Shown in pieces: positions 50,328 through 63,403 of a DNA stretch of 64,000 nucleotides. The stretch's first letter is position 1, and every line of letters begins with the position of its first letter. This DNA is from Naegleria gruberi (lineage: Eukaryota). Position numbers and translations under genes: made by a program. The notes under the pieces were generated by a model. The model saw only the letters and a list, made by a program, of their open reading frames with translations. It did no database searches and was not told where the DNA came from. The stretch lies in assembly GCA_000004985.1 (NCBI GenBank), contig GG738929.1; one strand, written 5' to 3'.

Positions 50328-52301
50328 TTAAATGCAATATCTTTTCACAAGGGATGAATCAATTTCAACCTTGAATAATATTTTGAAGAGAAAGCTGTGA
50401 GTAATTCTTTCATCGTTAACAAAGTGTATTGATGAATGATTACACAACAATGCACTAATGCAGAACATGAAATCTTCCTTAAGGAATGGAGATGCATCAG
50501 AAAATGCATACTCATAGGAGAGTATGGCAGCCTTGACAATGTCAGGATTACTTTTCAATCTTGGAGAGGCAAATTTGAGTGCCATTCCACTATTCTTACA
50601 TGCCGTCATGATTACTTCAAAATCATCACACAGTGGAGGGTCTGCATATTGTAATGTGTATGGATAATGTTTCACAGCATGAAGTAGCAACTCTCTGTCA
50701 GTAATTGTACTTGGATATTTGTTGAAAAAGTCGGCACTCTTTTCAACAGATGACCAAATCAATTCCTTGTCGGCTCTTAGACTTTCTGGAATGACATCCA
50801 GGTGATCGGTTCCATATTTTTTAACAATCATCATAATTAGCTCTCTATCATTTCTAAAGGATGAATCAAGGAACTTGAATAGGCATGGATTATTCTCCAC
50901 AATTTCAAAAATTAAATTTCTATCCAATTTCAACTCTGGAGTTAAAAACTTGTAGGCATTTGGTGAATATTTAAGAACCTTTTTTAGGAAATCCAAGTCC
51001 TTGACTAATTCAGGGTTCAGAAACTTTGTTCCTTCATTTGGTTTGTATTTTATGTATGCCAACAATACTTCCTTGTCGTTTCTGATATGTTTAGGCAATT
51101 TCTTATATTCTATAGCATTAAAAACTTGCATGACAACTTCTTTATCATTCCACAAATCCTCAGAGAGTTCATAAATAGAAACTTCAAATTCTGGTACCAT
51201 TTTAAGTATTAATGATCTATTACTGGATATTCTTCTTTCTATTTCATCAAAGACATGTCTTGGGTGCGATGATAAGTGAGCTCTTATTACTTCTTCATCA
51301 TCCCACAGTTGATGATCTGTAACTTGGCTTAGAATAAAATCATGATCTGATGAATCTGAAACCCGTAGACAACTCAGCAAAATTTCTCTATCATTGAAGC
51401 ATGATTTTTCTAAATAATAAATAGATGACCCATTTCTGGCTATGAGTGTTTTAGCTACCTGTTTGTAGTGTGGATATTCTAGTGGAAGACAAGATAAAGA
51501 TAAGTTTTTTTCCATGGCAACTTGAACTAGTTCATCAAAAAATGGCAGGTCAACTGGAACATATTTAAGATGATTACTATTTCCAGAGATTGCTTTCAAT
51601 AAAATATCATAATCCAGGGCATGTTTGGTATTTTTGATATGACCATAAGGATGGTTCTCCAACACGATCAATAACAAATCCTTTCTTTCACATATCAAAT
51701 CACTAGGAAGATAAGAAAGTGATATTCCACTCTTCACACACTCCTCAATAATGTCCAAATCTAGTGATTTGTAAACACCTGCTTTTAAGTAATTCAACTT
51801 TCCATGTTGTGCCAATTCCAAAACAATTTCCTTATTATCCTTAATTTCTGGATAAAATATGCCAACATTCAGTCCGTTGGACAAACAAGCTGCGATTCTA
51901 ATATCAATGTCTCTTTTCAATTCATTTGGAAGATAATCGAAAATATAACCATAAACACTGAGAGCTAACAGGGCAATATCCTTTCTCGTTTTTAAATGTT
52001 CGGGTATTTTGGAATAATTGAACCCATCCGATTCAATTGCTAGTTTGACAATTGTTTCATCATTTTTCAATCTTTCAGAAATAAATTCAAATCCACTAAA
52101 ATACTTTTTTGAACATGCCATTAATACAATTTCTCTGTCATCTCTCAATCTTTCAGAACAGAATTGAAACGCCAATGGTGCATGTTTAATGGCCAACTCG
52201 ACCACTTGTCTATCATCTTTCCAATGACTTGGAGCATATTTCAATACGTATGCGTTATGGGATACTAGCAATTTAATGACATGTTTGTAGTAATTGACCA
52301 T
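50328..52301 (-). CDS. DUF4116-like repeat protein (about 25 tandem repeats of roughly 26 aa). A possible upstream exon lies at 52366..52542.
   Basis: The repeat unit is of the form KNDREIVLAAVKQNG.AL.YA. The ATG is at 52301. An upstream ORF with a real ATG at 52542 could splice in through a GTATGG donor and a TTGCTAG acceptor (64-nt intron). This is unverified. Confidence 0.6.
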   Translation of the reverse strand: MVNYYKHVIKLLVSHNAYVLKYAPSHWKDDRQVVELAIKHAPLAFQFCSERLRDDREIVLMACSKKYFSGFEFISERLKNDETIVKLAIESDGFNYSKIPEHLKTRKDIALLALSVYGYIFDYLPNELKRDIDIRIAACLSNGLNVGIFYPEIKDNKEIVLELAQHGKLNYLKAGVYKSLDLDIIEECVKSGISLSYLPSDLICERKDLLLIVLENHPYGHIKNTKHALDYDILLKAISGNSNHLKYVPVDLPFFDELVQVAMEKNLSLSCLPLEYPHYKQVAKTLIARNGSSIYYLEKSCFNDREILLSCLRVSDSSDHDFILSQVTDHQLWDDEEVIRAHLSSHPRHVFDEIERRISSNRSLILKMVPEFEVSIYELSEDLWNDKEVVMQVFNAIEYKKLPKHIRNDKEVLLAYIKYKPNEGTKFLNPELVKDLDFLKKVLKYSPNAYKFLTPELKLDRNLIFEIVENNPCLFKFLDSSFRNDRELIMMIVKKYGTDHLDVIPESLRADKELIWSSVEKSADFFNKYPSTITDRELLLHAVKHYPYTLQYADPPLCDDFEVIMTACKNSGMALKFASPRLKSNPDIVKAAILSYEYAFSDASPFLKEDFMFCISALLCNHSSIHFVNDERITHSFLFKILFKVEIDSSLVKRYCI

Positions 52302-54414: not shown

Positions 54415-56388
54415 ATGTACTCACTGCACCAACACACTACTCAAGATGAATGTAATGATCATTCACATTCTGATACCTTCTTCGATGATAATAGTACTAT
54501 TGAGTCATTGCTCAATGATGATTTGTTTTCACACCTTGCTGGCAATACTCAAGCACCATCAGAGAGTGGAGTTTCTAATTCTTGTCATGATTTTGAAGAT
54601 GATAACGATGATAATGAACGAGTTGACAATGAAGAAGAAAGTATGCCACCTTGTAAACACCTAACACCAGATGCAAAGAAGGAGAAGGAGGAATTTGTTG
54701 CTAGAAAATTAACAGAAGAGGAAATTCCAATGGAAAGAACAATATTTTGCAGTAATTGTACTTCATGCACTTCATGTGTCTGTCAGAAGAATAAGCTTCC
54801 CTGTACAGTTAAATGTGCATGTCAAATTAAATGTAAAAATTTGAGAAAAGAAGTACTAACTGATAATTGGATTCAACACAAAACCTTACCAGAAAGAAAT
54901 ATTGAAAGTCCACTAATAGTTGGTCCAATTAATGTGAAACAAGATTTATCCATAAAGGAATCATTTCAATTGATTTGGACACCTGATATTATAGAACACA
55001 TTTATGAGAGAACCAATAGAAAGTTTGAATATTGGCAAATTTACTCAGATGAGATTAAAATGTATAAACTTGCAATTAAAGACAAATCCAAAAAGAGAAA
55101 GAGAATGAACAATAACACTAATCCATCTGAATCCATTGAATTATGTTCAGATATCGAATATGATCAGCCAGTTAGAACTCCAAAAAAGATATTTCCTGAT
55201 TTTGATGAATATTTCACAAAATGTAAAACTGAAAACAAAATATTAGAAGAAAAGTTTTCAAGAAAGCAAATTACTAACTTTTTAAATATTTCTATATTGA
55301 TGAATACTACATGTAAAATTCCAAACATTTGCAATTATTGGACAATATCAGGACTTGATGCAGCCCTTTATGGAAATGGAATATTCAGATATTTAATGAG
55401 TAGATCAATGTTTAATCAAATCAAGCAGAATTTAACATGTGACTCTGATTTTTTGGAAATGAGAGTGAATGAGAATTCTAGAAAATTTTGGAAATGTTTC
55501 AAAGAAATTTCAGTGGATGAAATAATTGCTCCTTTCAAGGGAAAGATTAGTGACAAACAGTTTCTCCCCACCAAACCTCACAATTATGGATTGAAATATT
55601 ATACACTATCTGATTGGGTTGGGTATGTTTATGCATTTTGGTTGTCAAAACACGAACATAAATCAGATAAAATTGTTTTAGATCTTATTGAGCATATTGA
55701 TGATCCACAGAATCATATTTTAGGTGTCGACAATTATTATGGATCATTAAATTTAGCAAATCAATTATCAGAAAAAGAATGGAATTATGTCATGACAGTG
55801 AGGGCTAATAGACCAACATTTCTTTTCAGTGATGGATTGTTGAAACATCTCAAAAGAAGCAAAACTAAAAAGTGGACTCAAGCTGTCCATAAAAACAATC
55901 ACATGGCTGCTGTTTCTCTCAATGATCACAAAAAGGTTAATTTTTTAACTAATTTGGGAAGTAATCAAACATTTCATTCACAACCACTTGTTCAGAAATA
56001 TGAAAGAATGGGTTGTGTTGAATTGTCTGGAATCAATCTTTACAAAATGGATGTTCCCTTCGAGGTAAATAATTGGAAAATCATCCATCTCTTTGAAGTT
56101 CTACGTATAGCTCTCGTTAATCAATATTTAATTTATAAGCATGTTAGAAACTTAACTAATTTGACCCTCAATGAATATTTGCAAGAGGCAACATTATCTC
56201 ATTGTGAATCCACCAACCCAAATTTCAAAAGAACAATACATTTCCCATCCAGTGTCAAAACTCGTGGACTTTGTGAGCATTGTAAGAATTTTCATTCTCT
56301 CACTCCTATCAAATGTCCTGCTTGTAATTCCTACCTTCATCAAAAGTGTTTTGTAGATTTTCACCTTAAAAAACACATTTATTATTAA
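54415..56388 (+). CDS. piggyBac-transposase-derived protein (DDE_Tnp_1_7-like core, C-terminal Cys-rich zinc finger, extra N-terminal CxxC-rich region). It could be domesticated or the ORF of an element.
   Basis: The core blocks are WTPDIIEHIYERTN, IAPFKGKISDKQFLPTKPHNYGLKYY and GVDNYYGSLNLANQLSEKEWNYVMTVRANRPTF, matching the DNFFTS...GT.R.NR block. The C-terminus CEHCKNFHSLTPIKCPACNSYLHQKCF is a piggyBac-type CRD. The 657-aa ORF is intact. I did not verify TIRs or TTAA target sites. Confidence 0.7.
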   Translation: MYSLHQHTTQDECNDHSHSDTFFDDNSTIESLLNDDLFSHLAGNTQAPSESGVSNSCHDFEDDNDDNERVDNEEESMPPCKHLTPDAKKEKEEFVARKLTEEEIPMERTIFCSNCTSCTSCVCQKNKLPCTVKCACQIKCKNLRKEVLTDNWIQHKTLPERNIESPLIVGPINVKQDLSIKESFQLIWTPDIIEHIYERTNRKFEYWQIYSDEIKMYKLAIKDKSKKRKRMNNNTNPSESIELCSDIEYDQPVRTPKKIFPDFDEYFTKCKTENKILEEKFSRKQITNFLNISILMNTTCKIPNICNYWTISGLDAALYGNGIFRYLMSRSMFNQIKQNLTCDSDFLEMRVNENSRKFWKCFKEISVDEIIAPFKGKISDKQFLPTKPHNYGLKYYTLSDWVGYVYAFWLSKHEHKSDKIVLDLIEHIDDPQNHILGVDNYYGSLNLANQLSEKEWNYVMTVRANRPTFLFSDGLLKHLKRSKTKKWTQAVHKNNHMAAVSLNDHKKVNFLTNLGSNQTFHSQPLVQKYERMGCVELSGINLYKMDVPFEVNNWKIIHLFEVLRIALVNQYLIYKHVRNLTNLTLNEYLQEATLSHCESTNPNFKRTIHFPSSVKTRGLCEHCKNFHSLTPIKCPACNSYLHQKCFVDFHLKKHIYY

Positions 56389-58634: not shown

Positions 58635-59144
58635 ATGTTCCTGAAGAGGCTGCCATGCCAACTTTGTGGGCTCAACAAAAGATTGACTCTCTCTCTGCAT
58701 TCCCTCAACTGTGCACAAGAAGCTAAAGATAAGCAAGAAAAGGAAAAGTTAGAAAGAATTATTAGTATGTGGAAGGAAAGAGTTAATTGGCATAAGACTG
58801 ACTTTAAATTACCTGAAGAAAAGCCAGAAAAGGAAAAGAAAAAGTTGGCTGCAATGGATGACTGTATTTCTGAATCTCTCTCTGTACAATCCTCTAGTTT
58901 GGATCGTTGTTGTAGATGTGAGGAGAATAGAGAATGTTGCAGACGTTCTTGTGCACCATCTCCAAGTTGTGCTAGAGGTTGTTGTTGTCGTTCTGCTAGT
59001 CCTTCTTTGAGTTGTTCAGATATCAGTTCAGGTCCACCACCACCTTCTGGAGGTGCAGGTAGTCCACCACCTCCTTCTGCTAAGTCAACAGCCTCTCAAG
59101 AAGAACCTAGTGTTGCTGGTACCATTCCATCTGGTAATTCATAA
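58635..59144 (+). CDS. Dubious Cys/Pro-rich ORF that overlaps the 3' end of the actin-like fragment on the opposite strand
   Basis: An ATG sits at 58635. The 169 aa carry a CCRCEENRECCRRSC block and PPPPSGGAGSPPPPS. They are low-complexity and partly antisense to the actin-like ORF. Confidence 0.2.
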   Translation: MFLKRLPCQLCGLNKRLTLSLHSLNCAQEAKDKQEKEKLERIISMWKERVNWHKTDFKLPEEKPEKEKKKLAAMDDCISESLSVQSSSLDRCCRCEENRECCRRSCAPSPSCARGCCCRSASPSLSCSDISSGPPPPSGGAGSPPPPSAKSTASQEEPSVAGTIPSGNS

Positions 59145-59785
59145 GAAACATCAGTCAGTGCCTTTTCATTTTCCTGTTCAAAATCCAATGCAACATAGCA
59201 AATATTATGCTTAATATCTGTCATGACATCTGTTGGATGCTCTGCAAAATATGGTATTTTACATCCAACAAATGCTTGAACCAAATATTCAGTAATTTCC
59301 CTTCCAGCAAAATTCCAACTTGAAATGGCATGTGTCAAGGCATATCCTTCATAGACAGGAACAGCTCTTGATACCATCTCTCCCAAATCCAAAACAATTC
59401 CACTTGTCTTGCCAGATGCAAACAATGCCAACACTCCTTGCATTGCCACATAAAAATTTGATATATTAAACTCCTCAAACACGATCTGCGTCATCCTCTC
59501 TCTATTACACTTTGGTTCCCTCACTGCTTCACTCATCAAGATTGGATGTAATTCTGGCCTGCATCTCAATTCTTCATAAATGGTTTGTCTCCAAACTAGT
59601 TCCATATCAGATATGTTGGTAATGACACAATGTTCAATTGGATATTTCAATGTACAGATACCTCTCTTAGCAATGGCTTCATCACCAACTACAGTGGTGC
59701 TTGTTGATTTCTTGTGATGGCCAACTATGGTTGGAAAGATTGATGTCGGAGTATTGTCTTGTTCATTTGCTATTCCTACTTTCAT
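59096..59785 (-). pseudogene. Divergent, truncated actin-like gene fragment, equivalent to about actin residues 20–250. It is a probable pseudogene or a decayed actin-related gene.
   Basis: FPTIVG...VGDEAIAKRGICTLKYPIEHCVITN...MTQIVFEEFNISNFYVAMQGVLALFASGKTSGIVLDLGEMVSRAVPVYEGYAL...ICYVALDFEQE...YELPDG follows actin colinearly. It lacks the N-terminal DNGSG phosphate-1 loop, the phosphate-2 DSGDGVTH motif is degenerate (DLGEMVSR), and the frame ends 9 codons after PDG, with the actin-like continuation in the +1 frame. Confidence 0.6.
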
Positions 59786-60460: not shown

Positions 60461-62552
60461 ATGTCTACAAATGCTACCAGGGCACAACTGTTTAATCCTT
60501 TTGGTGTTTTTGTTTCATCAAATAATGAAGTTTACATTGCTGATTTTTGTAATCATGCAGTTAGAAAAATATTAGAAAATGGAAATATTGTGACAATTGC
60601 AGGAAATGGAACTGCTGGATTCAGTGGTGATAATGGTCCTGCAACAAATGCACAATTTAATTATCCTTCTAGTGTTTTTGTTTCATCAAATAATGAAGTT
60701 TGCATTGCTGATTTACATAATCATAGAATTAGAAAAATATTAGAAAATGGAAGTATTATAACAATTGCAGGAAATGGAACTGTATGGATTCAGTGGTGAT
60801 AATGGTCCTGCAACAAATGCACAACTGTATAGGCCTTCTACTGTTTTTGTTTCATCAACTAATGAAGTTTATATTGCTGATTATAGCATAATCAAAGAAT
60901 TAGAAAAATATTGGAAAATGGAAATATTGTGACAATTGCAGGAAATGGAACTTATGGATTCAGTGGTGATAATGGGCTTGCAACAAATGCACAATTGTAT
61001 AATCCTTGTACTGTTTTTGTTTCATCAAATAATGAAGTTTATATTGCTGATCATACAATCAAAGAATTAGAAAAATATTAGAAAATGGAAATATTATAAC
61101 AATTGCAGGAAATGGAACTGATGGATTCAGTGGTGATAATGGTCCTGCAACAAATGCACAATTGTATTATCCTTCTAGTGTTTTTGTTTCATTAACTAAT
61201 GAAGTTTATATTGCTGATCAACATAATCACAGAATTAGAAAAATATTGGAAAATGGAAATATTATAACAATTGCTGGAAATGGAACTTATGGATTCAGTG
61301 GTGATAATGGTCCTGCAACAAATGCACAACTGAATCAGTCCTAATAGTGTTTTTGTTTCATCAAATAATGAGGTTTATATTGCTGATCAACAGTAATCAA
61401 AGAATTAGAAAAATATTAGAAAATGGAAATATTGTGACAATTGCAGGAAATGGAACTGCTGGATTCAGCGGTGATTCACCTTTTAATATTATAATGTATC
61501 CTCATATTGGAAATAAGTTATTAACTGGAAATAGTAGCTTGTACTCCAAAATAGAATATAATTTGAAAAAACATTCAAGAGATCAATTATTTGGATTTCA
61601 AATTTATGGATTCATTCCACTCATTGAAAAAATTTCACCAAAATTTAGTAATATTTTGAAGAATGAAAAGATGCTTTGTTTGATGAGTTCATCACAACAA
61701 GAAATTATTCAAAAATTAATTGATTCTTTGCTGTATGATAAGAACAAGGTAAAGTTTAGCAAAGAAGAAGTGTTGGATGTTTTATTCATTTTGGGTTTAT
61801 TTAAGAATGGTGAATTTATTGATTTGAAAAGATCATTGACAAGTGAATTTGTGAACTCATTCACATTAGAAAATCTTACTTTCAAATGGGAAACAATTGA
61901 AAATTTACTCAAAACTTGCAAAGAGGAATTTGGTATTCAAAATTACATTCTCGATCAATTGAATAACCATTGCATTGAATATGCTGCTGTTCAAATGCAA
62001 ACAAAAGAAGGAAACACTTTATTATCGACTCTTCCAATAATTATGAGAAATGCTACTGCCATATTTCCAAAAATGATCATTACTGAACCAACTGCAATTA
62101 ATATTGAGGAAACAATTGAAAATGAACCACAAACAATTGAATCATTATATGGTGATATGAAAACAAGTGATGTAAAAATCAAAATGGGACAAAACAAATA
62201 CTTATATTGTCACAAAACTGTATTGAGTTCATCAAGTACATTGTTTAATGCATTATTTGACAGTGGATCTTGTTTCAGTGATTTGAGTGATGATGGAATA
62301 TTCACACCTGACGAATCAGAAGATTTGGAATTATTGGAAATTGTGATCAAATATTGTTATAGAATTTCAATTGACAAAATTGATGCTGTTAAAATTATTG
62401 GATTACTTGATATGGCAATGAAACATGAAATTCAATATCTAATCAATTATTGCAAGAATAACTTTACTCTATCCATTGATAATTACTTTGCTATGCTTGA
62501 AGTTTGTGAAAATTTTTTGAATGCAATTTTTGAGAGAGATTCTCAAGTTTAG
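60461..62552 (+). pseudogene. NHL-repeat + BTB/POZ domain gene. Its NHL region is interrupted by frameshifts and stops. The C-terminal BTB ORF (61347..62552) is intact.
   Basis: The NHL motif reads FGVFVSSNNEVYIAD..NH.IRKILENGNI.TIAGNGT.GFSGDNGPATNAQ. The BTB domain reads DVKIKMGQNKYLYCHKTVLSSSSTLFNALF...LELLEIVIKYCYR. The reading frame breaks at 60797, between 60860 and 61160, and at 61340. Confidence 0.55.
60488..61500 (+). repeat. Tandem array of about 6 copies of a 170-nt unit, each coding one NHL repeat
   Basis: The unit (…AGGAAATGGAACTGCTGGATTCAGTGGTGATAATGGTCCTGCAACAAATGCACAA…) recurs at about 60600, 60771, 60941, 61111, 61280 and 61450. Copies 3, 4 and 6 carry 1–2-nt indels relative to intact copies. 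Confidence 0.8.
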
Positions 62553-62944
62553 CATTGTCAACAGAAAACAACTCTTCATAGATCAAAATAGAATTTCCAA
62601 ATTACCTGAAAAATTTTGGCAAGAAATCTTAAAGCTTTCACAGGACTTTTGAGATTGAGACATGAAAATAATTATAATAATTTATGTGATGCATTGTCAT
62701 TGACCTTTTACTATTCGAGACGGGACTGTACTCTCTCTCCTCCTCAATAAACAACAATACTTGGTAATGACTCAGCTTCCATTTTCTCTCAATGGTGCGT
62801 TTTGAATACAGAGGAAAAGACTAAATTATGACAAATACTTTACATTCTTAAAGCTGTGAAGTAAAAATTGAATCAGATGATGAAAGCTACTTATCCTCTC
62901 AAATAAACGAATGTCTTACTGTTTTATTTAAAATGGTATCTAAA

Positions 62945-63403
62945 TTACATAATTAAGCATTCTTGTTGGCTTTCTTCATTTTCATTGTTTCTTCTTCCTT
63001 GTTGTTGAATTTGTTGTTGTTGTTGATTGGGAGGGTTATTATTATTGGTAGCTACATACATGGCTCCTAAAGAAACTGCCCCAACAACAGCAAGTGCTCC
63101 CCAGAATGAGCCATTTCCTTGGTTAGTAGTAGTGCTTGTTACAGGTACTTCTGAATCCAATCTTGTTGTTTGCTCAAAATGTTCTGGTTCAATGAGATCC
63201 TTTGTGTGATCTCTGAGCTCTCCATTTCGGCCATTGTAAACTCCAAATGGTTTGATTGTACCAATCGAATCTATATCCCATTCAAGAATTTCAGTCAAAT
63301 AGCGAGAGGCATTGTTGCCACATCTCGTAACTTGTTCTCTGAGTTTTTGAAGTTTTCGTTTTTGATTTCTCCAAACCACATCTGGTGAATAGTTAATAGC
63401 CAT
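62945..63403 (-). CDS. Hypothetical tail-anchored membrane protein, 152 aa
   Basis: The ATG is at 63403. A single C-terminal transmembrane helix (FWGALAVVGAVSLGAMYVA) is followed by an N/Q-rich tail. Confidence 0.4.
   Translation of the reverse strand: MAINYSPDVVWRNQKRKLQKLREQVTRCGNNASRYLTEILEWDIDSIGTIKPFGVYNGRNGELRDHTKDLIEPEHFEQTTRLDSEVPVTSTTTNQGNGSFWGALAVVGAVSLGAMYVATNNNNPPNQQQQQIQQQGRRNNENEESQQECLIM

What the first reader, a model, noticed from the sequence alone, without database searches (positions are those of the whole stretch)
60461..62552. NHL-repeat/BTB gene caught mid-decay, or assembly-collapsed, over a 170-nt tandem array
Six near-identical 170-nt units each encode one NHL blade. 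Copies 1, 2 and 5 are intact. Copies 3, 4 and 6 carry small indels (+1/+2, -1, +1/+1) that break the frame. The downstream BTB domain remains intact. This is either recent pseudogenisation inside an expanding family or sequencing/assembly error in a tandem repeat. The NHL+BTB domain combination is itself unusual.
Basis: seen in the sequence. Interest (0 to 1): 0.5.

Follow-up and report, generated by a model that had tools for sequence, protein, structure and literature searches.

The report
Frameshifted NHL-propeller/BTB gene copy in Naegleria
This is one copy of a gene family found only in Naegleria, a six-bladed NHL propeller joined to a BTB domain, whose recorded sequence has six frame breaks that the public annotation hides behind three invented introns. 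It is either a dead duplicate or a mis-assembled repeat, and is ordinary either way.

Summary
Window 60482-61475 is a tandem array of 5.9 units of 168 nt (not 170), each encoding one NHL blade. Five small indels (+T 60785, +AT 60888-89, -1 at 61055/56, +A 61337, +C 61391) break the frame.

The window is Naegleria gruberi NEG-M (Sanger assembly, 189,881-bp scaffold). The locus is already public as NAEGRDRAFT_75816 (EFC36517.1, 618 aa). That model hides the frameshifts behind three GT-AG "introns" made of blade-coding sequence.

NHL+BTB is a Naegleria-specific family with at least 13 annotated N. gruberi models, canonically six blades. The fold resembles SPOP-type Cul3 adaptors.

A sixth lesion was missed. 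A 14-nt deletion at about 62513-62522, in unique sequence, cuts off a conserved 43-residue helical tail.

The pattern is not ordinary decay:
- All five array indels lie in hypervariable codons (P about 2e-4).
- The frame-corrected array has no stops and no excess change at conserved positions.
- The 3' half is 100% identical over 371 residues to an apparently intact twin, NAEGRDRAFT_76287.

I judge a real, recently disabled partial duplicate slightly more likely (about 0.5) than a consensus artefact of the repeat assembly (about 0.4). Only reads can decide. Interest is low.

The parts
60461..62552 (+). Whole NHL(6)-helical-BTB gene copy. It equals the public model NAEGRDRAFT_75816 / EFC36517.1 / D2W344 (618 aa), whose exons are 60461-60781, 60887-60996, 61071-61337 and 61394-62552.
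   Evidence: The exact-sequence cluster look-up and exon mapping place this model on the window. Pfam finds NHL, TEN_NHL and BTB in the frame-corrected translation.
60482..61475 (+). Tandem array of 5.9 units of 168 nt. Each unit is 56 codons and encodes one four-stranded NHL blade. Units are 85-93% identical to each other.
   Evidence: A paralog model shows six blades of four strands each.
60785..60785 (+). Indel 1: an extra T (ACT GTA[T]GGA TTC) in unit 2, codon column 45, which is hypervariable.
   Evidence: The twin copy P0002 reads TVGF at this point.
60888..60889 (+). Indel 2: an extra AT (GAT TAT AGC[AT]AAT CAA) in unit 3, columns 22/23. Together with indel 1 it restores the frame after a 100-nt out-of-frame stretch that contains stop codons.
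61055..61056 (+). Indel 3: one base missing between these two positions (GAT CAT A-C AAT CAA) in unit 4, column 23.
61337..61337 (+). Indel 4: an extra A (AAT C[A]GT CCT, which would read N-R-P without it) in unit 6, column 5.
   Evidence: P0002 unit 6 reads LNRPNS.
61391..61391 (+). Indel 5: an extra C (GAT CAA[C]AGT AAT, which would read D-Q-S-N without it) in unit 6, columns 22/23.
   Evidence: P0002 unit 6 reads DQSNQ.
60782..60886 (+). Predicted 'intron' 1 of the public model: 105 nt, GTATGG...TATAG. It consists of blade-coding sequence lying between indels 1 and 2.
60997..61070 (+). Predicted 'intron' 2 of the public model: 74 nt. Its length compensates for the 1-nt deletion.
61338..61393 (+). 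Predicted 'intron' 3 of the public model: 56 nt. It spans the stretch from indel 4 to indel 5.
61614..62078 (+). All-helical linker domain with no Pfam match. It corresponds to helices 41-195 of paralog P0128, where pLDDT is about 90.
62160..62462 (+). BTB/POZ domain core.
   Evidence: Pfam BTB matches residues 567-667 of the 696-residue conceptual protein at 1.2e-9. The paralog model aligns to the SPOP BTB/3-box structure 3htm with TM 0.71.
62513..62522 (+). Site of a 14-nt net deletion (gaps of 1 and 13 nt) relative to an independent near-identical contig and to paralogs. The sequence CENYFDLQLFEQFLRE becomes CENF followed by a frameshift. This is the sixth frame break and it lies in unique sequence.
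   Evidence: A blastn alignment to ENA contig L001 shows the deletion. Paralog P0128 has the intact tail.
62524..62652 (+). Conserved 43-residue C-terminal tail (QFLREILKFSIVNRKQLF...SQDF), now out of frame with the BTB ORF. In paralogs this region forms helices that follow the BTB domain.
   Evidence: tblastn with paralogs recovers the tail in frame 1. The helices are seen in the paralog models.
62945..63403 (-). Convergent neighbour gene NAEGRDRAFT_54345 (152 aa). It is the 3' part of a gene that accompanies all three copies of the cassette and is 238 aa elsewhere. Homology to the other copies stops at 63398, which marks the edge of the duplicated segment.

Best explanation
The locus is one of three near-identical copies in Naegleria gruberi NEG-M of a gene cassette. 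The cassette encodes an N-terminal six-bladed NHL beta-propeller, a helical linker domain, a BTB domain and a short helical tail.

By architecture and fold, the family most likely supplies substrate adaptors for a Cullin-3-type ubiquitin ligase. The propeller's variable top face would bind the target and the BTB-plus-tail would bind the ligase. This function is inferred, not shown.

This particular copy is most likely a real, recently disabled partial duplicate. It sits next to gene fragments and a transposase. Its companion gene is truncated at the duplication edge. It has lost the conserved C-terminal tail through a 14-nt deletion, and its blade array carries five small frame-breaking indels.

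Those indels did not come from general neutral decay. They sit exclusively in the hypervariable loop codons. I infer they arose during recombination between diverged blade units, where clusters of mismatches are repaired imprecisely, and that they persisted because the copy was no longer under selection.

The 618-residue public protein is an annotation artefact. It splices out the out-of-frame stretches.
For: Identity and annotation:
- Window ORFs equal N. gruberi NEG-M proteins on a 189,881-bp scaffold.
- The locus is NAEGRDRAFT_75816, and its three 'introns' excise blade-coding sequence.

Family and fold:
- Paralogs carrying NHL+BTB occur only in Naegleria among the hits, and most regular ones have six units.
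- The AlphaFold model of paralog P0004 has 24 strands in six blades at pLDDT above 90, and matches NHLRC2 and teneurin NHL propellers.
- The C-terminal half matches SPOP BTB/3-box, KEAP1, KLHL11-Cul3 and A55-Cul3 structures.

Evidence that the lesions are real:
- The adjacent unique sequence aligns to an independent Illumina-derived contig (L001) at 98% over 1,295 bp with no 1-2-nt indels. The only gap is a 14-nt deletion that removes the conserved tail, so local consensus quality is good and at least one ORF-damaging lesion is not a repeat problem.
- The neighbour gene is cut at 63398.
- A truncated actin and a piggyBac-type transposase lie alongside.
- Units within this array differ by 7-15%, so long Sanger reads should place uniquely.
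- Three of the five indels lie where plausible variants differ by only 1-2 bases, which alignment merging does not easily explain (my reading).

Evidence for an array-specific origin:
- All five indels are in hypervariable codons. Three fall in the same two-codon loop in different units. P is about 2e-4 and 4e-4 respectively.
- The hypervariable codons have pN/pS of 2.3, against 0.38 for the rest of the unit.
Against: - After frame correction there is no stop codon and only one change at conserved columns. This implies fewer than about 10 random substitutions alongside five indels, which is an odd ratio for genuine mutation.
- Four of the five events are insertions and none is in a homopolymer. 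That is atypical of spontaneous indels.
- The hot spot at codons where array variants differ is also what a consensus built from mixed reads would produce.
- About half of the family's public models have irregular arrays but intact 3' halves. The twin copy B is a mosaic of A-like and C-like parts. Both facts hint at assembly trouble across this family.
- No read, transcript or second-assembly evidence for the array could be obtained.
- The proposed mechanism of imprecise repair at mismatch clusters is inferred, not demonstrated.
- Cul3 binding is untested.
Confidence: 0.5

Rival explanations
1. Assembly or consensus artefact. The real gene has an uninterrupted six-unit array. The five small indels were created when the Sanger whole-genome assembler stacked reads from different array variants (two alleles of a heterozygous diploid, or the near-identical copies B and C) and built a consensus through misaligned clusters of differences.
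For: - The indels lie only in the codons where array variants differ.
- Insertions predominate. At least indels 1 and 2 read as the union of two in-frame variants (GTA/TAT and AGC/CAT).
- There are no stops and no excess change at conserved positions.
- The 3' half is 100% identical to copy B, which would help recruit the wrong reads.
- Many family models in the same assembly are irregular, split or fused.
- The genome is a Sanger assembly of a heterozygous diploid (PMC9928731).
- Internally conserved propeller repeats are known to assemble badly. In Podospora, a single-base deletion in a repeat was shown to be a misassembly (PMC12222747).
Against: - The adjacent unique sequence shows no small indels against an independent contig.
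- Units of this array are 7-15% diverged from one another, and the array is about 13% diverged in protein from copies B and C. Reads of several hundred bases should therefore place correctly.
- Indels 3-5 are hard to produce by merging variants that differ by one or two bases.
- The copy has independent damage (the 14-nt deletion and the truncated neighbour) and lies in a fragment-rich region.
Confidence: 0.4
2. The public gene model is right. The three GT-AG segments are real introns and the locus makes the 618-residue protein.
For: The boundaries are canonical GT...AG, and the model yields one open reading frame from the family's usual start codon.
Against: - Each 'intron' is about 90% identical to blade-coding units and keeps full blade-coding capacity in a shifted frame.
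- Their lengths (105, 74 and 56 nt) are exactly what is needed to cancel the indels.
- The product lacks 78 residues from blades 3, 4 and 6 and leaves four partial units. That is incompatible with the closed six-blade fold seen in paralogs.
- Regular paralogs have no interruption at these positions.
Confidence: 0.03
3. Ordinary old pseudogene decaying by neutral point mutation and indels, which is the literal reading of 'mid-decay'.
For: There are six frame-breaking lesions. The setting contains gene fragments and a transposase.
Against: - A simulation with 25-50 random substitutions, the number expected to accompany five indels at usual ratios, never leaves the conserved columns untouched. 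The observed array has at most one such change and no stops.
- All 371 residues compared in the 3' half are identical to the twin copy.
- Indel placement is strongly non-uniform.
Confidence: 0.03

Closest known systems
Paralogs in the same genome: NAEGRDRAFT_76287 (EFC36048, 679 aa), NAEGRDRAFT_53386 + NAEGRDRAFT_74322 (a split model), NAEGRDRAFT_49904, NAEGRDRAFT_82333, NAEGRDRAFT_64406 and others; also N. lovaniensis C9374_010626
   Same: They share the same order of domains: six NHL units, a helical linker, a BTB domain and a helical tail. Identity to the window copy is 49-93%. Residues 308-678 of NAEGRDRAFT_76287 are identical to the window. The same convergent neighbour gene sits beside three copies.
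   Different: The regular paralogs have uninterrupted arrays and, in most cases, the intact C-terminal tail. The window copy has five array frameshifts, a 14-nt tail deletion and a truncated neighbour.
SPOP (MATH-BTB) and Kelch-BTB (KEAP1, KLHL, KBTBD) Cullin-3 substrate adaptors
   Same: Both combine a BTB domain followed by helices with a separate substrate-binding domain. The paralog model aligns to the SPOP BTB/3-box structure 3htm at TM 0.71, and to KEAP1, KLHL11-Cul3, KBTBD2-Cul3 and vaccinia A55-Cul3. As in SPOP, the recognition domain is N-terminal to the BTB.
   Different: The recognition domain here is an NHL propeller rather than MATH or Kelch. A roughly 160-residue helical domain of unknown type lies between the propeller and the BTB. 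Sequence similarity is too low for phmmer to detect against the PDB. Cul3 binding is untested.
TRIM-NHL E3 ligases of animals (TRIM71/LIN-41, Brat, TRIM2/3/32)
   Same: Both use a six-bladed NHL propeller as the target-binding module of a ubiquitin-ligase component. The propeller model matches the Lin41, Thin and TRIM71 NHL structures.
   Different: The ligase module in those proteins is RING/B-box/coiled coil and is N-terminal. They are not BTB proteins. Their blades are not near-identical to one another. This comparison rests on my own knowledge of the family.
Fungal NLR genes with highly internally conserved WD40 repeats (Podospora het-e, het-d, nwd family)
   Same: Both have propeller blades encoded by near-identical tandem units and a few hypervariable codons on the binding face. 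Both show exchange of units within and between loci, variation in repeat number, and family members that are pseudogenes or carry repeats with stops or frameshifts. Some of those defects proved real and some proved to be misassemblies (PMC1805685, PMC12222747). Here the units are 85-93% identical, pN/pS is 2.3 at the hypervariable codons, and those codons lie in the B-C and D-A loops.
   Different: The repeat type differs (NHL rather than WD40), as do the partner domain (BTB rather than NACHT) and the lineage. No allelic or population data exist here. RIP does not apply.

Membership tests
NHL-repeat beta-propeller (Pfam PF01436 / PF25021) | Repeats match the NHL profile above the curated cut-off | tested here: met
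   The frame-corrected translation scores 109.8 bits for NHL (cut-off 20) and 123 bits for TEN_NHL (cut-off 27.1).
NHL-repeat beta-propeller (Pfam PF01436 / PF25021) | Six four-stranded blades forming a closed propeller | tested here: met
   This was shown for paralog P0004, not for the window copy. The model has 24 strands at pLDDT above 90. Foldseek aligns it to the NHLRC2 NHL domain 6g7w at TM 0.84 and rmsd 2.3. The window has six homologous units.
NHL-repeat beta-propeller (Pfam PF01436 / PF25021) | Continuous reading frame through the repeats | tested here: not met
   There are five frame-breaking indels, and stop codons follow each shift.
BTB/POZ domain (PF00651) | Profile match above the curated cut-off and a BTB fold | tested here: met
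   BTB scores 38.7 bits against a cut-off of 20.5. The paralog model matches SPOP, KEAP1 and BCL6 BTB structures.
Cullin-3 substrate adaptor (SPOP / KLHL type) | Helical extension after the BTB domain (3-box/BACK-like) that supports Cul3 binding | tested here: not met
   The extension is present in paralogs: helices follow the BTB domain, and the alignment to SPOP BTB/3-box covers 151 columns. In the window copy the 14-nt deletion puts everything after the first of these helices out of frame.
Cullin-3 substrate adaptor (SPOP / KLHL type) | Physical binding to Cullin-3 and ubiquitylation of a bound substrate | not testable with these tools
   This requires biochemistry. The presence of a Naegleria Cul3 was not examined.
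Unprocessed pseudogene (dead duplicate) | Reading frame disrupted relative to intact close paralogs | tested here: met
   There are six frame breaks relative to P0002, P0128 and contig L001.
Unprocessed pseudogene (dead duplicate) | Signs of relaxed constraint: stop codons and changes at conserved positions | tested here: not met
   The frame-corrected array has 0 stops. It has 1 change among 107 residues at columns conserved at 95% or more, which is within the range of intact paralogs.
Unprocessed pseudogene (dead duplicate) | Lesions confirmed in the organism's DNA, with no intact transcript | not testable with these tools
   No reads or transcript data were reachable. Paralog loci were not on record. 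Two metagenome scans found nothing.
Tandem-repeat assembly artefact | Indels absent from raw reads or from an independent assembly of the same strain | not testable with these tools
   Only the unique 3' flank could be compared with an independent contig. That flank shows no small indels.
Highly internally conserved, concertedly evolving repeat family (as in fungal NLR WD40 arrays) | Near-identical units with a few hypervariable codons showing an excess of amino-acid changes | tested here: met
   Units are 85-93% identical. pN/pS is 2.30 at the 10 hypervariable codons and 0.38 elsewhere.
Highly internally conserved, concertedly evolving repeat family (as in fungal NLR WD40 arrays) | Exchange of units between loci and variation in repeat number | tested here: inconclusive
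   Copy C has a duplicated pair of units. Copy B combines a C-like array with an A-identical 3' half. Several other models are irregular. All of this could also be misassembly, and no paralog DNA was available.
Spliceosomal introns (public model NAEGRDRAFT_75816) | GT-AG boundaries | tested here: met
   The boundaries are GTATGG..TATAG, GTATAA..ATTAG and GTCCTA..AACAG.
Spliceosomal introns (public model NAEGRDRAFT_75816) | Intron sequence is non-coding, and the spliced product is compatible with the family fold | tested here: not met
   The 'introns' are homologous to blade-coding units. The product has four partial blades.

The most novel reading that the evidence does not exclude
The Naegleria NHL-BTB genes could form a recognition repertoire analogous to the fungal NLR repeat families. 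In this reading the near-identical blade units are continually shuffled within and between loci. That shuffling diversifies a handful of top-face loop codons that pick ubiquitylation targets, such as proteins from prey, symbionts or viruses. The same recombination, acting on clusters of mismatches, would throw off frameshifted by-products like this locus. The hot spot of indels at the hypervariable codons would then be a footprint of the diversification mechanism itself.
Probability: 0.15. Interest if true: 0.6.

Novelty: new member of a known kind. Interest (0 to 1): 0.22.

Why it matters
The practical value is curation. A public protein (EFC36517.1 / D2W344) is a gene-model artefact that hides six frame breaks. 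About half of this family's public models look similarly compromised. Counts and alignments of Naegleria BTB and NHL proteins should therefore be treated with care until the arrays are re-sequenced with long accurate reads.

The biological interest is modest. The family places an NHL propeller on a SPOP-like BTB scaffold, a lineage-specific design with no literature. Its blades show the combination of strong internal conservation and hypervariable loop codons that marks recognition repertoires elsewhere. This single broken copy does not itself open a new question.

Tried and rejected
- **Paralog DNA.** I tried to fetch the paralog loci (P0002, P0004, P0129) and the window's own genes by exact-product look-up. 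None is on record. Only the ENA contig L001 was retrieved.
- **Metagenome scans.** Two scans, one for the array-linker junction and one for the most conserved unit sequence, found nothing.
- **PDB sequence search.** phmmer of the C-terminal half against PDB sequences found nothing. Fold search was needed instead.
- **Literature.** The N. gruberi genome paper and review are not held. No paper mentions Naegleria together with NHL and BTB.
- **Relaxed constraint.** I expected an excess of changes at invariant positions, which would have proved relaxed constraint. The test came out negative, at 1 of 107.
- **'Union of two variants' test.** I dropped this as a test for the insertions. Almost any insertion in a hypervariable codon passes it.
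- **Ideas considered and rejected.**
  - Alternative genetic code: long standard-code ORFs are present and window ORFs match public proteins exactly.
  - Programmed frameshifting: the five shifts are of mixed sign and stops follow each one immediately.
  - Real introns.
  - Allelism of the window copy with the 23.6-kb scaffold: homology breaks at 63398.
- **Not used.** Bacterial multi-unit NHL proteins would swamp any array query, as they did.
Full report
**Observation.** Tandem Repeats Finder reports a single strong array at 60482-61475, with period 168, 5.9 copies, 89% matches and score 1525. It is the only array scoring at least 100 in the window. Aligning the six units shows lengths of 168, 169, 170, 167 and 168 nt, plus two extra bases in unit 6. 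Three-frame translation and frame correction locate five lesions:
- an extra T at 60785
- an extra AT at 60888-60889
- one base missing between 61055 and 61056
- an extra A at 61337
- an extra C at 61391

Their sum (+4) accounts for the frame difference between the ATG at 60461 and the 401-codon ORF 61347-62552. The frame-corrected 696-residue product matches Pfam NHL (2.4e-32), TEN_NHL (1.9e-35) and BTB (1.2e-9).

**Source and public annotation.** The window is gene-dense, about 32% GC, and contains no N. Several of its ORFs are exact matches to Naegleria gruberi NEG-M proteins on one 189,881-bp scaffold. That genome is a Sanger assembly of an organism described as a heterozygous diploid (PMC9928731).

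The locus is already annotated as NAEGRDRAFT_75816 (EFC36517.1, XP_002669261.1, UniProt D2W344), a 618-residue 'predicted protein'. Mapping that protein onto the window gives four exons: 60461-60781, 60887-60996, 61071-61337 and 61394-62552. Between them lie three GT-AG 'introns' of 105, 74 and 56 nt.

These segments are blade-coding sequence in a shifted frame, and their lengths exactly cancel the indels. The resulting protein has four partial blades. I regard them as devices of the gene predictor, not real introns.

**Family.**
- A search of 5.8 billion proteins finds close relatives with both NHL and BTB only in Naegleria. With the later look-ups there are at least 13 N. gruberi models and one from N. 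lovaniensis. All other strong hits are bacterial NHL-only proteins.
- Regular members have exactly six 56-residue units.
- An AlphaFold model of paralog P0004 shows 24 strands in six blades (pLDDT above 90), a disordered stretch, a helical domain with no Pfam match, a BTB domain and terminal helices.
- Foldseek matches the propeller to the NHLRC2, teneurin, Lin41 and TRIM71 NHL domains.
- In a separate model of P0128, Foldseek matches the C-terminal half to SPOP BTB/3-box (3htm, TM 0.71), KEAP1, KLHL11-Cul3, KBTBD2-Cul3 and vaccinia A55-Cul3.

The most likely function of intact members is a SPOP-like Cullin-3 substrate adaptor that uses an NHL propeller for recognition. This is inferred from architecture and fold and has not been tested.

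**Three copies and a sixth lesion.** I call the window copy A.

Copy B is NAEGRDRAFT_76287 (P0002, 679 aa), on a 23,652-bp scaffold. It has an uninterrupted six-unit array, and its residues 308-678 are 100% identical to window 61392-62504.

Copy C is on a 236,320-bp scaffold and is annotated as two genes. P0131 holds the NHL units and P0128 holds the linker, BTB and an intact tail. P0128 is 97% identical to the window.

All three copies have the same convergent neighbour gene.

An independent ENA contig (L001, 1,717 bp) aligns to window 62118-63398 at 98% identity. It has no small indels but one 14-nt net gap at about 62513-62522. That gap turns CENYFDLQLFEQFLRE into CENF followed by a frameshift. 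The conserved 43-residue tail is still readable out of frame at 62524-62652.

Homology to the neighbour gene ends abruptly at 63398, leaving a 152-residue remnant of a 238-residue protein. Upstream lie an actin fragment (residues 18-247 only) and a piggyBac-type transposase ORF.

**The pattern is not ordinary decay.** I built a conservation profile from 59 units of ten annotated paralogs. It defines ten hypervariable columns: 4, 5, 7, 8, 22, 23, 25, 44, 45 and 53. From the strand positions in the model, these fall in the B-C and D-A loops. Those loops form the usual ligand-binding face of propellers; the face assignment is inferred from topology. Within the window array, pN/pS is 2.30 at these codons and 0.38 elsewhere.

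All five indels lie in hypervariable codons: column 45 once, columns 22/23 three times in three different units, and column 5 once. The probability is about 2e-4 for uniform placement. It is about 4e-4 for three or more of five falling in one two-codon window. None is in a homopolymer, and four are insertions.

After frame correction there are no stops. Only 1 of 107 residues at columns conserved at 95% or more deviates, which is no worse than in intact paralogs. In simulation, 25 or more random substitutions never leave the conserved columns untouched.

The array is about 13% diverged in protein from that of copy B, while the 3' half is identical. Change is therefore confined to the array and to its variable codons.

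**Weighing the two live explanations.**

For real lesions:
- The flanking consensus is clean against an independent assembly.
- One frame-breaking deletion lies in unique sequence.
- The copy is a truncated duplicate among gene fragments.
- Its units are diverged enough (7-15%) for long reads to place uniquely.
- Three of the indels are hard to make by merging variants that differ by one or two bases.

For an artefact:
- The hot spot is where reads from different array variants would disagree.
- Insertions dominate, and indels 1 and 2 read as unions of two in-frame variants.
- There is no accompanying point-mutation decay.
- About half of the family's public models have irregular arrays with intact 3' halves.
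- Copy B is a mosaic of A-like and C-like parts.

The Podospora WD40-repeat NLR literature offers precedents for both outcomes: real stops in repeats supported by reads, and a single-base deletion shown to be a misassembly (PMC12222747). It also shows concerted evolution, hypervariable binding-face codons and pseudogene members in such families (PMC1805685).

I put a real, recently disabled copy at about 0.5, with indels arising from recombination between diverged units. I put a consensus artefact at about 0.4. The public intron model and ordinary slow decay get a few per cent each.

**Verdict.** The finding is real as a sequence feature and is correctly described apart from details. It is a frameshift-ridden member, or a mis-assembled one, of a lineage-specific and uncharacterised family of probable BTB-type ubiquitin-ligase adaptors.

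It is already in public databases under a misleading gene model. It is of low general interest. The one curious point is that the indels are confined to hypervariable loop codons, which only reads can explain.

Noticed in passing
window 59120-59782 (-), overlapping 58635-59144 (+): There is an actin fragment covering only residues 18-247 of actin, 49% identical to human ACTB. No C-terminal third exists anywhere in the window. The opposite strand carries an annotated low-complexity 'predicted protein', NAEGRDRAFT_75815. N. gruberi is reported to have 64 actin genes (PMC9928731).
   Followed up: partly
window 54415-56388 (+): A 657-codon ORF matches the piggyBac-type transposase profile DDE_Tnp_1_7 at 1.6e-33. 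The exact ORF product is not in the protein collection, so the public model, if there is one, differs.
   Followed up: no
window 62945-63403 (-): The annotated 152-residue protein NAEGRDRAFT_54345 is the 3' remnant of a multi-copy gene that is 238 aa elsewhere. That gene accompanies each copy of the NHL-BTB cassette. The version on the 23.6-kb scaffold (P0126, 620 aa) is fused to an Hsp70 fragment, which suggests another chimeric model.
   Followed up: partly
paralog proteins P0170, P0131+P0128, P0001, P0006, P0172/P0171, P0082, P0130 (other N. gruberi scaffolds): About half of the annotated NHL-BTB models have partial units, are split into two genes, are fused, or end in out-of-frame sequence, while their linker-BTB halves read cleanly. 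The family as a whole needs re-sequencing.
   Followed up: partly
window 61614-62078 (+), equivalent to residues 378-535 of paralog P0004: A confidently predicted all-helical domain of about 160 residues lies between the propeller and the BTB domain. It has no Pfam match and no PDB sequence match.
   Followed up: partly
L001 (ENA ERZ929261, run ERR1078381, contig k127_20536): A contig labelled as metagenome carries DNA 98% identical to N. gruberi NEG-M across the 3' end of an NHL-BTB gene, the intergenic region and the neighbour gene. That sample therefore contains a close N. gruberi relative.
   Followed up: no
window 50328-52301 (-): NAEGRDRAFT_54340 consists of ten DUF4116 repeats (Pfam 7e-92). 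It is another internally repetitive protein a few kb away.
   Followed up: no
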